Source of the DNA: the human T2T-CHM13v2.0 reference genome, Homo sapiens
DNA: 64,000 nt
Direction: 5' to 3' (one strand)
Assembly: GCF_009914755.1 (NCBI RefSeq)
Contig: NC_060935.1
Numbering within the stretch: the first letter of the stretch is position 1; every line of letters begins with the position of its first letter. The notes beneath the pieces are model-generated. The model ran no database searches and had not been told where the DNA came from. It was given only the letters and a program-made list of their open reading frames with translations. Shown piece after piece: positions 3,785 through 4,369 of the stretch. Made by a program: the position numbers and the translations under genes.

Positions 3785-4369
3785 ATGCTCTCCTCCACAC
3801 TCAGGGTGGCTGTGGTGTGCGTGAGCAATGTCAACAGGAGCATGGAGGCCCACAGCATCCTCAGGAGAAAAGGGCTAAGTGTCCGGTCTTTTGGAACTGA
3901 ATCTCATGTGAGGCTACCAGGACCAAGACCCAATCGTCCTGTAGTTTATGATTTTGCAACAACATATAAGCAGATGTACAATGACCTCCTCAGGAAAGAT
4001 AGAGAACGCTACACCCGCAACGGAATCTTACACATCTTGGGAAGAAATGAGAGAATCAAGCCCGGTCCAGAAAGATTTCAGGAGTGCACTGATTTCTTTG
4101 ATGTCATCTTCACCTGTGAGGAGAGTGTCTATGACACAGTGGTGGAAGATCTGTGTTCCAGAGAACAGCAGACCTTTCAGCCTGTGCACGTGATCAACAT
4201 GGACATCCAAGATACCCTGGAAGATGCCACCCTGGGAGCTTTCCTCATCTGTGAGATTTGCCAGTGCCTGCAGCAGTCAGACGACATGGAAGACAATCTG
4301 GAAGAGCTGCTGTTGCAAATGGAGGAGAAGGCAGGAAAAAGCTTTCTTCACACCGTCTGCTTCTACTGA
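3785..4369 (+). CDS. SSU72L: SSU72-like RNA polymerase II CTD phosphatase, intronless retrogene copy 1 (194 aa)
   Basis: ATG at 3785 in GCCGCCATCATG context; 585-nt ORF MLSSTLRVAVVCVSNVNRSMEAH...FLHTVCFY is colinear with SSU72 (194 aa); C12-X5-R18 and D140-IQ-D143 present; no introns. The paralog number cannot be assigned from sequence alone. Confidence 0.9.
   Translation: MLSSTLRVAVVCVSNVNRSMEAHSILRRKGLSVRSFGTESHVRLPGPRPNRPVVYDFATTYKQMYNDLLRKDRERYTRNGILHILGRNERIKPGPERFQECTDFFDVIFTCEESVYDTVVEDLCSREQQTFQPVHVINMDIQDTLEDATLGAFLICEICQCLQQSDDMEDNLEELLLQMEEKAGKSFLHTVCFY

What the first reader, a model, noticed from the sequence alone, without database searches (positions are those of the whole stretch)
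3818..4230. Remodelled active site: catalytic core kept, substrate-facing residues changed
Seen: P-loop CVSNVNR, HVRLPGP, ILHIL, CEESVYD and (D/E)IQDTLEDA. SSU72 as I recall it has CSSNQNR, HVKLPGP, ILHML, CEERVYD and DIQDNHEEA, which gives S13V, Q16V, K43R, M84I, R114S, N144T and H145L. The C-terminal TVCFY implicated in symplekin binding is unchanged. Inference: altered specificity, or a weak or dominant-negative competitor for symplekin that could promote readthrough or changed poly(A) site use.
Basis: partly seen in the sequence, partly recalled or inferred. Interest (0 to 1): 0.7.

Follow-up and report, generated by a model that had tools for sequence, protein, structure and literature searches.

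The report
Intact SSU72-like retrogene labelled pseudogene
This stretch is an unbroken copy of an old, fast-evolving family of SSU72-like phosphatase genes that appear to switch on with the embryonic activator DUX4, and its altered active-site loop is a trait of the whole family, not of this copy.

Summary
Window 3785-4369(+) is an intact 194-codon intronless ORF (annotated SSU72P6), and it carries all five quoted motifs. All seven named substitutions against human SSU72 are real. They are 7 of 55 differences.

None of the 55 hits any of the 18 positions that are at least 95% conserved in canonical Ssu72. Q16V, K43R and N144T lie within normal Ssu72 variation. S13V/M, M84I and N53V are unusual.

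These changes are not specific to P6. They mark a well-supported SSU72L clade across primates, tree shrew, carnivores, bats, perissodactyls and cetartiodactyls. That clade keeps C12, N15, R18, S19 and D143 in 52-53 of 54 sequences. dN/dS against the parent gene is 0.19.

P6 has no private derived coding change. It shares the TATA box, UTRs and poly(A) signal with its annotated coding paralogues.

New lead: each promoter carries two DUX4 motifs. Six SSU72P/L paralogues, but not P6, are induced 270- to 720-fold (logFC 8.1-9.5) in DUX4-active FSHD-model myotubes.

The dominant-negative idea is untested. The claim that TVCFY binds symplekin could not be verified.

The parts
3785..4369 (+). Intact intronless ORF of 194 codons plus stop (annotated SSU72P6); SSU72-like phosphatase
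   Evidence: ORF; Pfam PF04722, 284.7 bits, profile 1-189 of 189; gapless match to human SSU72 chains; AF2 pLDDT 93.8; TM 0.97 to 3o2q_E
3818..3838 (+). P-loop C12-V13-S14-N15-V16-N17-R18 (CX5R); nucleophile Cys and Arg kept; positions 13 and 16 hydrophobic
3926..3943 (+). Loop residues 48-53 (RPNRPV; parent APDKPN), overlapping the loop a review names as the symplekin contact
4202..4228 (+). Asp loop D140-A148 with D143 kept; N144T, H145L, E147D
3654..3659 (+). TATAAA box 131 nt upstream of the ATG, identical in all seven SSU72L-type copies
3683..3784 (+). 5'UTR equivalent, placed by homology to the annotated SSU72L4 exon; 1 of 102 nt differs from L4
   Evidence: plus the gene table given with the finding
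3548..3558 (+). DUX4-type motif TAATTTAATCA, 237 nt upstream of the ATG
   Evidence: motif definition from PMC12376486
2911..2921 (+). DUX4-type motif TAATCTAATCA (the form reported as optimal), 874 nt upstream of the ATG
4370..4784 (+). 3'UTR equivalent (4 of 415 nt differ from L4 and from L3), with AATAAA at 4765-4770
1..5153 (.). Left arm of an inverted duplication. It is 98.4% identical to 16946-11793, which carries SSU72L4, so P6 and L4 form a convergent pair

Best explanation
SSU72P6 in this assembly is a seventh intact member of the SSU72L family, not a decayed pseudogene.

Origin. The family began as a processed retrocopy of SSU72. The four parental intron positions are seamlessly joined in P6. 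It arose no later than the common ancestor of primates and laurasiatherians. Since then it has evolved fast at the protein level while keeping every residue that is near-invariant in Ssu72 enzymes.

Copy history in catarrhines. The locus was copied at the DNA level between chr7 and chr11. On chr11 it was amplified into three convergent inverted pairs: L5/L2, P6/L4 and L3/L1.

The 'remodelled active site'. This is the family signature: a hydrophobic residue at P-loop positions 13 and 16, plus V53, I84, T144 and L145. R114S is a change found in only part of the clade.

Most likely mechanism (inferred, not shown). The protein is a catalytically competent cysteine phosphatase of the Ssu72 type, using the C12 thiolate, a P-loop with R18 and D143 as general acid. 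It acts on the phospho-CTD of RNA polymerase II. Its cap and loop surfaces are altered, which could change affinity for symplekin or for CTD repeat variants.

Expression (shown for six paralogues, inferred for P6). It is not housekeeping. The promoters carry a TATA box and two DUX4 motifs, and the paralogues are induced together with canonical DUX4 and embryonic-genome-activation genes.
For: Intact gene with the same signals as coding paralogues:
- Intact ORF, full-length Pfam match and confident SSU72 fold.
- P6 shares the TATA box, 5'UTR (1 of 102 nt differs), CDS (4 of 585), 3'UTR (4 of 415) and AATAAA with the annotated coding gene SSU72L4.
- P6 has no private derived nucleotide state at any of the 10 variable CDS sites among the six chr11 copies. 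Its unique F104 is shared with the chr7 copy.

Family and age:
- Eight intact intronless copies lie in this genome, plus the five-exon parent.
- The SSU72L clade of 38 rows has SH-aLRT 100 and a stem of 0.21. It spans primates, Tupaia, Carnivora, Pteropus, Perissodactyla and Cetartiodactyla.

Selection:
- Parent versus P6: dN 0.185, dS 0.97, ratio 0.19. The excess of synonymous changes gives P = 4e-12, or 1e-5 with a 0.30 synonymous fraction.
- chr7 versus chr11: 13 nonsynonymous changes in 459 sites against 128 in 2171 flank sites, odds ratio 0.47, P = 0.006.
- C12 and N15 are kept in 53 of 54 clade members; R18, S19 and D143 in 52 of 54.
- All 18 canonical near-invariant positions keep the same residue in the clade. 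Mean pairwise identity within the clade is 71%, against 95% for vertebrate SSU72.

Expression:
- The motif TAAYBBAATCA occurs 6 times in the window against 1.34 expected. All six lie in SSU72L promoters, at -237 and about -874.
- The same two sites are present in P6, L4, L1, L3, L2 and the chr7 copy.
- The motif is the published DUX4 ChIP-seq site (PMC12376486, passage read).
- Table S1 of PMC10951985 (sheet 'DEL_SM Mutants', late-myotube column) lists SSU72P4, P5, P7, P2, P8 and P3 at logFC 9.49-8.08, among MBD3L2, LEUTX, TRIM43 and PRAMEFs.
- A preprint reports the 'SSU72-like family' going up together with DUXA, LEUTX, ZSCAN4 and 21 PRAMEF genes (10.64898/2026.06.26.734761, passages read).
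Against: - RefSeq labels this copy a pseudogene.
- SSU72P6 has 0 occurrences in the same Table S1 in which six paralogues appear. That table does list other pseudogenes, for example DUXAP8.
- The six entries come from near-identical genes, so multi-mapped reads make them non-independent.
- Among the six chr11 copies the variable sites are 7 nonsynonymous to 3 synonymous. This fits neutrality, so present-day constraint on the human copies is not shown.
- With a 0.30 synonymous fraction, the chr7/chr11 synonymous excess is only P = 0.07.
- R114, which is 90% conserved in canonical Ssu72, is Ser in P6. G39, 92% conserved, is Glu.
- No enzymatic, proteomic or binding data exist for any SSU72L protein in the papers I could search.
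- SSU72L5 has lost both exact DUX4 motifs.
- Two motif sites copied by duplication count as only two independent observations.
- The 8C-like-cell and DUX4-hESC supplements that I could open contain no SSU72P or SSU72L entry. A third supplement lists only canonical SSU72.
- dS of about 1 is higher than expected for a split about 90-100 million years old. CpG decay may explain part of it: 25 of the 142 differences lie at the 50 parental CpG positions, and GC3 fell from 0.70 to 0.59.
Confidence: 0.7

Rival explanations
1. P6 is what its label says: a silent or untranslated duplicate. Its ORF survives only because the duplication is young, and it contributes no protein.
For: - RefSeq labels it a pseudogene.
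- It is absent from the table of differentially expressed genes that lists six paralogues.
- Variation within the cluster is 7 nonsynonymous to 3 synonymous, which is compatible with neutrality.
- The arms are only 1.6% diverged, so an open frame is expected by chance.
Against: - The promoter, TATA box, both DUX4 motifs, UTRs and poly(A) signal are essentially identical to those of annotated, induced paralogues.
- P6 has no private derived coding change.
- Its absence from a short-read gene table can result from multi-mapping, or from the reference assembly used.
Confidence: 0.15
2. One reading: SSU72L proteins are catalytically weakened or dead. They act as competitors of SSU72 for symplekin and so promote readthrough or shifts in poly(A) site use.
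For: - S13V/M is essentially absent from canonical Ssu72: V in 0 of 62 and M in 1 of 62 sequences.
- R114S and G39E hit positions that are 90% and 92% conserved.
- The overall fold is predicted unchanged, so binding to partners is conceivable.
Against: - The nucleophile, the P-loop Asn, Arg and Ser, and the general-acid Asp are kept in 52-53 of 54 clade members despite 29% mean divergence. A pure competitor would not need them.
- The loop reported to touch symplekin differs at 3 of 5 residues.
- Drosophila Ssu72, whose complex with a CTD phosphopeptide has been solved, has Met at position 16.
Confidence: 0.1
3. Neofunctionalisation away from the CTD: SSU72L is an active phosphatase whose altered cap and loops direct it to other substrates in germ cells or early embryos.
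For: - Clade-fixed novel residues V53, I84, E89, E100, F109 and S186.
- Fast evolution: 71% mean identity within the clade against 95% for vertebrate SSU72.
- A review describes non-CTD, dual-specificity roles for SSU72 itself (PMC8038829 abstract).
Against: No data on substrates. The residues that are near-invariant in CTD-directed Ssu72 enzymes are all retained.
Confidence: 0.1

Closest known systems
Human SSU72 (RNA polymerase II CTD phosphatase; PDB 3O2Q, 3O2S, 4H3K)
   Same: - 194 residues, aligned without gaps.
- 72% identity.
- Same predicted fold: TM 0.97, rmsd 0.8 Å.
- C12, N15, N17, R18, S19 and D143, and the C-terminal TVCFY, are all identical.
   Different: - 55 residue changes.
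- No introns, against five exons in the parent.
- A TATA and DUX4-motif promoter.
- P-loop positions 13 and 16 are hydrophobic.
- Loop 48-53, I84, S114, T144 and L145 differ.
- Within-group divergence is about six times that of vertebrate SSU72: 29% against 5% mean pairwise difference.
SSU72L1-SSU72L6 (annotated human protein-coding paralogues, formerly SSU72P2-P8; renaming noted in PMC12807706)
   Same: - 98% amino-acid identity to the five chr11 copies and 93% to the chr7 copy.
- Same promoter, UTRs and poly(A) signal.
- Same clade.
- P6 is the mirror partner of L4 in an inverted pair.
   Different: - Labelled a pseudogene.
- Carries the combination Q63, F104 and D140.
- Not listed in the one table of differentially expressed genes where the other six appear.
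Low-molecular-weight protein tyrosine phosphatases
   Same: - CX5R P-loop on the same core fold. Foldseek TM is 0.40-0.46 to human, bovine and yeast LMW-PTP chains.
- From memory, not tested here: LMW-PTP P-loops also carry hydrophobic residues at the two positions that are V13 and V16 in P6.
   Different: Only 11-20% identity. Ssu72 has an added cap subdomain and acts on phosphoserine.
Clustered DUX4-induced gene families (PRAMEF, TRIM43/49, RFPL4, TAF11L, MBD3L)
   Same: - Multi-copy, recently duplicated clusters.
- DUX4 motifs in the promoter.
- Co-induced in the same late-myotube column.
   Different: The family derives from a retrocopy of an essential housekeeping enzyme. It predates primates, whereas the amplification on chr11 is recent.

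Membership tests
Ssu72 phosphatase family (Pfam PF04722) | Full-length match to the family profile above the curated cut-off | tested here: met
   284.7 bits against a cut-off of 25.3; residues 6-194 match profile positions 1-189 of 189
Ssu72 phosphatase family (Pfam PF04722) | CX5R P-loop with the nucleophilic Cys and the Arg, plus the supporting Asn and Ser | tested here: met
   C12, N15, N17, R18 and S19 are present. These positions are at least 95% conserved in 62 canonical sequences
Ssu72 phosphatase family (Pfam PF04722) | Asp-loop general acid (D143 in human numbering) | tested here: met
   D143 is present. It is invariant in all 62 canonical sequences and kept in 52 of 54 SSU72L sequences
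Ssu72 phosphatase family (Pfam PF04722) | Ssu72 fold: LMW-PTP core plus cap | tested here: met
   AF2 model with pLDDT 93.8 and TM 0.97 to 3o2q_E. This is a prediction that leans on solved relatives
Ssu72 phosphatase family (Pfam PF04722) | Phosphatase activity on pSer5/pSer7 of the Pol II CTD with a cis-proline requirement | not testable with these tools
   Needs enzyme assays
Ssu72 phosphatase family (Pfam PF04722) | Binding to and stimulation by the symplekin/Pta1 N-terminal domain | not testable with these tools
   The symplekin sequence could not be supplied to complex prediction. The primary structure papers are not held
SSU72L retrogene subfamily | Placement inside the SSU72L clade, apart from canonical SSU72 and the parent-like retrocopies | tested here: met
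   Clade of 38 rows with SH-aLRT 100; P6 sits with the five other chr11 copies
SSU72L retrogene subfamily | Clade signature residues: hydrophobic 13 and 16, V53, I84, E89, E100, F109, S186 | tested here: met
   P6 has V13, V16, V53, I84, E89, E100, F109 and S186. Only the clade's R118 is T in P6
SSU72L retrogene subfamily | Intronless CDS with the shared TATA and DUX4-motif promoter | tested here: met
Processed pseudogene (the current label) | Disabled reading frame (stop, frameshift or lost start) | tested here: not met
   The 194-codon frame is intact, starting at ATG in an A(-3) context
Processed pseudogene (the current label) | No promoter and no transcription | tested here: inconclusive
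   Promoter elements match those of induced paralogues, but SSU72P6 itself is absent from the one expression table seen
Direct DUX4 target genes | DUX4 consensus site near the start of transcription | tested here: met
   Sites at -237 and -874 from the ATG; consensus taken from PMC12376486
Direct DUX4 target genes | DUX4 occupancy and DUX4-dependent induction | tested here: inconclusive
   Six paralogues are induced in DUX4-active mutant myotubes. No ChIP data or DUX4 knock-down data for these genes were seen, and P6 is not listed

The most novel reading that the evidence does not exclude
SSU72L, including this unlabelled seventh copy, is a DUX4-driven Pol II CTD phosphatase specific to the cleavage-stage embryo. 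On this reading mammals have kept it for roughly 90 million years alongside the housekeeping enzyme. Its hydrophobic P-loop and its altered cap and symplekin-contact loop would give it a different reading of the CTD code. Its burst of expression at embryonic genome activation, and ectopically in FSHD muscle and DUX4-positive tumours, would then reshape promoter-proximal Ser5P removal, termination and poly(A) site choice.
Probability: 0.25. Interest if true: 0.8.

Novelty: new member of a known kind. Interest (0 to 1): 0.5.

Why it matters
SSU72 is an essential, almost invariant enzyme of the transcription cycle. Many mammals also keep a second version that evolves quickly but stays catalytically intact. 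In humans that version has been amplified to seven open copies carrying DUX4 motifs.

I found no functional study of it. The searches were over the held library. Main texts only were searched, and supplements were opened for four papers.

If the proteins are active, they are candidate modifiers of Pol II CTD phosphorylation and 3'-end formation in two settings: at embryonic genome activation and in FSHD. That can be tested directly with existing DUX4-inducible cells.

For annotation, the practical point is that this copy has no sequence feature that separates it from its protein-coding paralogues in T2T-CHM13.

Tried and rejected
1. Residue-level contacts with the CTD peptide and symplekin. 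The primary structure papers are not held: Xiang 2010, Xiang 2012, Luo 2013, Werner-Allen 2011 and Irani 2019. Other held papers gave no contact lists. So 'substrate-facing' could not be checked residue by residue. I used conservation across orthologues instead.

2. Yeast ssu72-2 (R129A) as a guide to R114. The search listing gave nothing usable. By my own recalled alignment R129 is not R114, so I dropped this line.

3. Bovine embryo knock-down presented for an 'SSU72-like' locus (PMC13398327). The printed siRNA encodes the canonical ...ERFQNC stretch, whereas 96% of SSU72L sequences have E100. It therefore probably targets canonical SSU72 and says nothing about SSU72L.

4. Retrocopy hallmarks. 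Similarity to the parental UTRs stops about 10 nt upstream of the ATG, and no 3'UTR match lies beyond the CDS. I looked for no poly(A) tract or target-site duplication.

5. Supplements. Those of the 8C-like-cell paper (PMC8901440) and the DUX4-hESC paper (PMC9287684) have no SSU72P or SSU72L entry. PMC8990217 has only canonical SSU72, and that file was cut when stored.

6. Earlier findings of this scan were not open.

7. A retrogene literature search was badly posed and returned nothing about SSU72.

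Full report
**What is there**

Window 3785-4369 (+) is an uninterrupted ATG-to-TGA frame of 194 codons. It matches the Pfam Ssu72 profile end to end at 284.7 bits. It aligns without a gap to human SSU72 from the symplekin complexes (3o2s_B, E = 6.6e-95).

The parental motifs it recalled are exactly those of the PDB sequence. They also match the parental gene, which I spliced from its five chr1 exons in the same genome. The seven substitutions are therefore real and correctly numbered.

They are 7 of 55 amino-acid differences, or 142 of 582 nucleotides.

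**Genomic setting**

The whole genome holds eight intact 194-codon intronless SSU72 copies:
- six on chr11: P6, L4, L1, L5, L3 and L2
- one on chr7, 93% identical to P6
- one on chrX, 64% identical to P6

The four parental intron positions (after nt 80, 224, 364 and 483) are seamlessly joined in all of them, so they derive from processed mRNA.

The chr11 copies lie in three convergent pairs with about 8.8 kb between paired copies (coordinates): L5/L2, P6/L4 and L3/L1. In the window, bases 1-5153 are an inverted copy, 98.4% identical, of 16946-11793. Bases 2741-9000 are 96.9% identical to the L3 unit.

The chr7 and chr11 loci are homologous over 2787 nt including flanks, at 93.4% identity with 7 gap openings. 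That step was therefore a DNA-level duplication and not a second retroposition.

**Is P6 different from its 'protein-coding' neighbours?**

No sequence feature separates them. Against SSU72L4, P6 differs at:
- 1 of 102 nt in the 5'UTR equivalent
- 4 of 585 nt in the CDS
- 4 of 415 nt in the 3'UTR

The TATAAA box at -131, the ATG context and the AATAAA (4765-4770) are identical.

At the 10 CDS sites that vary among the six chr11 copies, P6 never has a private derived state. Its only unique residue, F104, is shared with the chr7 copy.

I could not check why RefSeq keeps the pseudogene label. GRCh38 and other haplotypes were not available.

**Age and selection**

A word-indexed search and an exhaustive HMMER search returned many annotated 'SSU72-like' proteins from placental mammals.

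From 272 sequences I kept the 156 with at most 6 gaps over the 194 reference columns and no X, dropping 116.

A tree of 70 of these was built with IQ-TREE in its quick mode, with SH-aLRT support only. The 70 were nine human rows, 55 named rows chosen for taxonomic spread and six non-vertebrate outgroups. It gives a clade of 38 rows with support 100 and a stem of 0.21. The clade holds haplorhines, lemurs, lorises, Tupaia, carnivores, Pteropus, perissodactyls and cetartiodactyls.

Outside the clade, close to canonical SSU72, fall the copies from colugo, pangolin, deer, hedgehog, pika, squirrel, Acomys, tenrec and marsupials, and the human chrX copy. These look like separate retrocopies.

So the family dates at least to the common ancestor of primates and laurasiatherians. 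The date itself rests on established mammalian phylogeny and was not computed here.

Selection measures:
- Parent versus P6: dN 0.185, dS 0.97, ratio 0.19.
- The synonymous excess is significant even with a generous neutral synonymous fraction: P = 1e-5 at 0.30.
- dS is probably inflated by CpG decay and a GC3 drop from 0.70 to 0.59.
- Since the chr7/chr11 split, nonsynonymous sites changed about half as often as the flanks: 13 of 459 against 128 of 2171, P = 0.006.
- Fixed differences between chr7 and chr11 are 10 nonsynonymous to 9 synonymous.
- Within the young chr11 cluster the counts are 7 to 3, which has no power and fits neutrality.

**The 'remodelled active site'**

I grouped the 156 sequences by identity thresholds, not by the tree:
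- 54 SSU72L, after dropping nine near-identical rows (the five other human chr11 copies and four close unnamed database entries)
- 18 vertebrate canonical
- 44 non-vertebrate canonical
- 31 other parent-like retrocopies

Catalytic positions are held in the SSU72L group: C12 and N15 in 53 of 54; R18, S19 and D143 in 52 of 54. All 18 positions that are at least 95% conserved in the 62 canonical sequences keep the same residue in the clade, with mean conservation 0.97. The clade's mean pairwise identity is 71%, against 95% for vertebrate SSU72.

P6's 55 changes fall as follows by canonical conservation class:

| Canonical conservation | Positions | Changed in P6 |
|---|---|---|
| 95% or more | 18 | 0 |
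| 80-95% | 35 | 4 (P5T, G39E, R114S, L158I) |
| 50-80% | 67 | 18 |
| under 50% | 74 | 33 |

Site by site:
- **Position 16:** M, I, V or L in 53 of 54 SSU72L sequences. The same residues fill at least 25 of 44 non-vertebrate Ssu72 sequences, and Drosophila, whose CTD complex is solved, has M. Q16V is therefore ordinary.
- **K43R:** R occurs in 22 of 62 canonical sequences. Ordinary.
- **N144T:** T occurs in 9 of 62 canonical sequences. Ordinary.
- **S13:** becomes M (40) or V (7) in the clade, against V in 0 of 62 and M in 1 of 62 canonical sequences.
- **M84I:** I in 48 of 54 clade sequences against 2 of 62 canonical.
- **H145L:** L in 37 of 54 against 3 of 62.
- **N53V:** V in 85% of the clade against 3% of canonical sequences.
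- **R114S:** hits a 90%-conserved Arg, but only 28 of 54 clade members have S and 19 keep R. The human chr7 copy has R, encoded by CGT where chr11 has AGT.

The last five sites are the real family signatures. The picture is a conserved catalytic machine with a family-specific lining, fixed long ago. It is not a peculiarity of this copy.

An AlphaFold2 model built on a 96-row alignment is confident (pLDDT 93.8). It superposes on SSU72 of the symplekin-CTD complex at TM 0.97 and rmsd 0.8 Å. That result leans on solved relatives and says nothing about activity.

**Symplekin**

TVCFY is indeed unchanged. It is equally unchanged in nearly all vertebrate and SSU72L sequences.

I found no source that ties it to symplekin. 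The only statement I could read is in a review (PMC8038829, passages). It places the contact at a flexible loop, residues 49-53. P6 differs from SSU72 at 3 of 5 residues there, whichever of the two possible numberings applies.

The primary structure papers are not held, so the interface could not be checked.

**Expression lead**

The cluster looks like a young multi-copy family, so I scanned for the DUX4 site TAAYBBAATCA. I recalled the motif from memory and then confirmed it as the ChIP-seq motif, with TAATCTAATCA as the optimal form, in PMC12376486 (passage).

- The window has 6 matches against 1.34 expected; 1 of 100 shuffles reaches 6.
- All six lie upstream of the three complete copies: at -237, and at -874 (P6, L4) or -911 (L3).
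- The copies are duplicates, so these are two independent sites. By my arithmetic, two sites within 1.5 kb at the background density have a Poisson probability of about 5e-4.
- Both sites are also present in L1, L2 and the chr7 copy. Both are mutated in L5, and both are absent from the chrX copy.

In Table S1 of PMC10951985 (mmc2.xlsx, sheet 'DEL_SM Mutants', late-myotube column; I read parts of the file and searched all of it), six paralogues are listed at P between 1e-10 and 2e-15:

| Gene | logFC |
|---|---|
| SSU72P4 | 9.49 |
| SSU72P5 | 9.14 |
| SSU72P7 | 8.98 |
| SSU72P2 | 8.85 |
| SSU72P8 | 8.38 |
| SSU72P3 | 8.08 |

They sit among MBD3L2, KHDC1L, H3Y1, LEUTX, TRIM43, RFPL4A and PRAMEFs. 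The main text says DUX4 targets dominate that stage.

SSU72P6 and SSU72P1 have no entry.

A preprint on Merkel cell carcinoma reports the 'SSU72-like family' rising in the same knock-down that raises DUXA, LEUTX, ZSCAN4 and 21 PRAMEF genes (passages).

Neither paper links SSU72L to DUX4. Searches of main texts for SSU72L1-6, SSU72P1-8, 'SSU72-like', DUX4 with SSU72, and SSU72 with 'genome activation' found no functional study. The only other mentions are an HGNC renaming note and a transposon survey.

Three other supplements gave no SSU72P or SSU72L entry. More could not be opened.

**Verdict**

The evidence points to a long-conserved, probably active paralogue rather than a crippled competitor. 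The named changes are neither specific to P6 nor mostly unusual.

The most useful results are two. First, this 'pseudogene' cannot be told apart from its coding paralogues by sequence. Second, the family carries DUX4 motifs and is co-induced with the DUX4 programme.

Noticed in passing
L008 (G000:C23:112798712-112799287, +), outside the window: A separate chrX SSU72 retrocopy keeps an open 194-codon frame (78% identical to SSU72, dN/dS 0.23). Its P-loop reads CWNNQNQ, so the catalytic Arg18 is replaced by Gln. It looks like a conserved-looking but probably inactive copy. It has no DUX4 motif and no TATAAA in its upstream 1.5 kb.
   Followed up: partly
L007 (G000:C7:125793889-125794470, +), outside the window: The chr7 paralogue has Arg at 114, encoded by CGT where the chr11 copies have AGT (Ser) and the parent has an AGR Arg codon. 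This is an apparent return to the canonical residue. It also carries P47R, Q142K and D147G near the active site.
   Followed up: partly
window 12573-13157 (-), and 63747 to beyond 64000 (-): SSU72L4 and SSU72L1 have identical coding sequences (0 of 582 nt differ), although they lie in different duplication units about 51 kb apart. This suggests gene conversion or a very recent copy.
   Followed up: no
L004 (SSU72L5, G000:C11:4298337, +), outside the window: SSU72L5 alone has lost both exact DUX4 motifs (TAAAGTAATCA and TAGTTTAATCA) while keeping the TATA box.
   Followed up: partly
window 5153-6050, 11088-11985 and 62262-63159: A segment of about 900 nt just beyond the palindrome arm recurs at 85-86% identity, inverted, beside L4 and L1. 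It is older than the arms themselves.
   Followed up: no
proteins P0197, P0198, P0206, P0211, P0217, P0222, P0233, P0244 and others: Many mammals carry further open, parent-like SSU72 retrocopies that fall outside the SSU72L clade: colugo (four), pangolins, deer, hedgehog, tenrec, pika, squirrel, Acomys and several marsupials. SSU72 seems unusually prone to leaving open-frame retrocopies.
   Followed up: partly
window 3755-3784 (+): The frame stays open upstream of the ATG; stop to stop it is 236 codons in all seven SSU72L-type copies. Bacterial-style gene callers in the protein databases start these proteins at an upstream GTG, which gives 204-residue entries.
   Followed up: no
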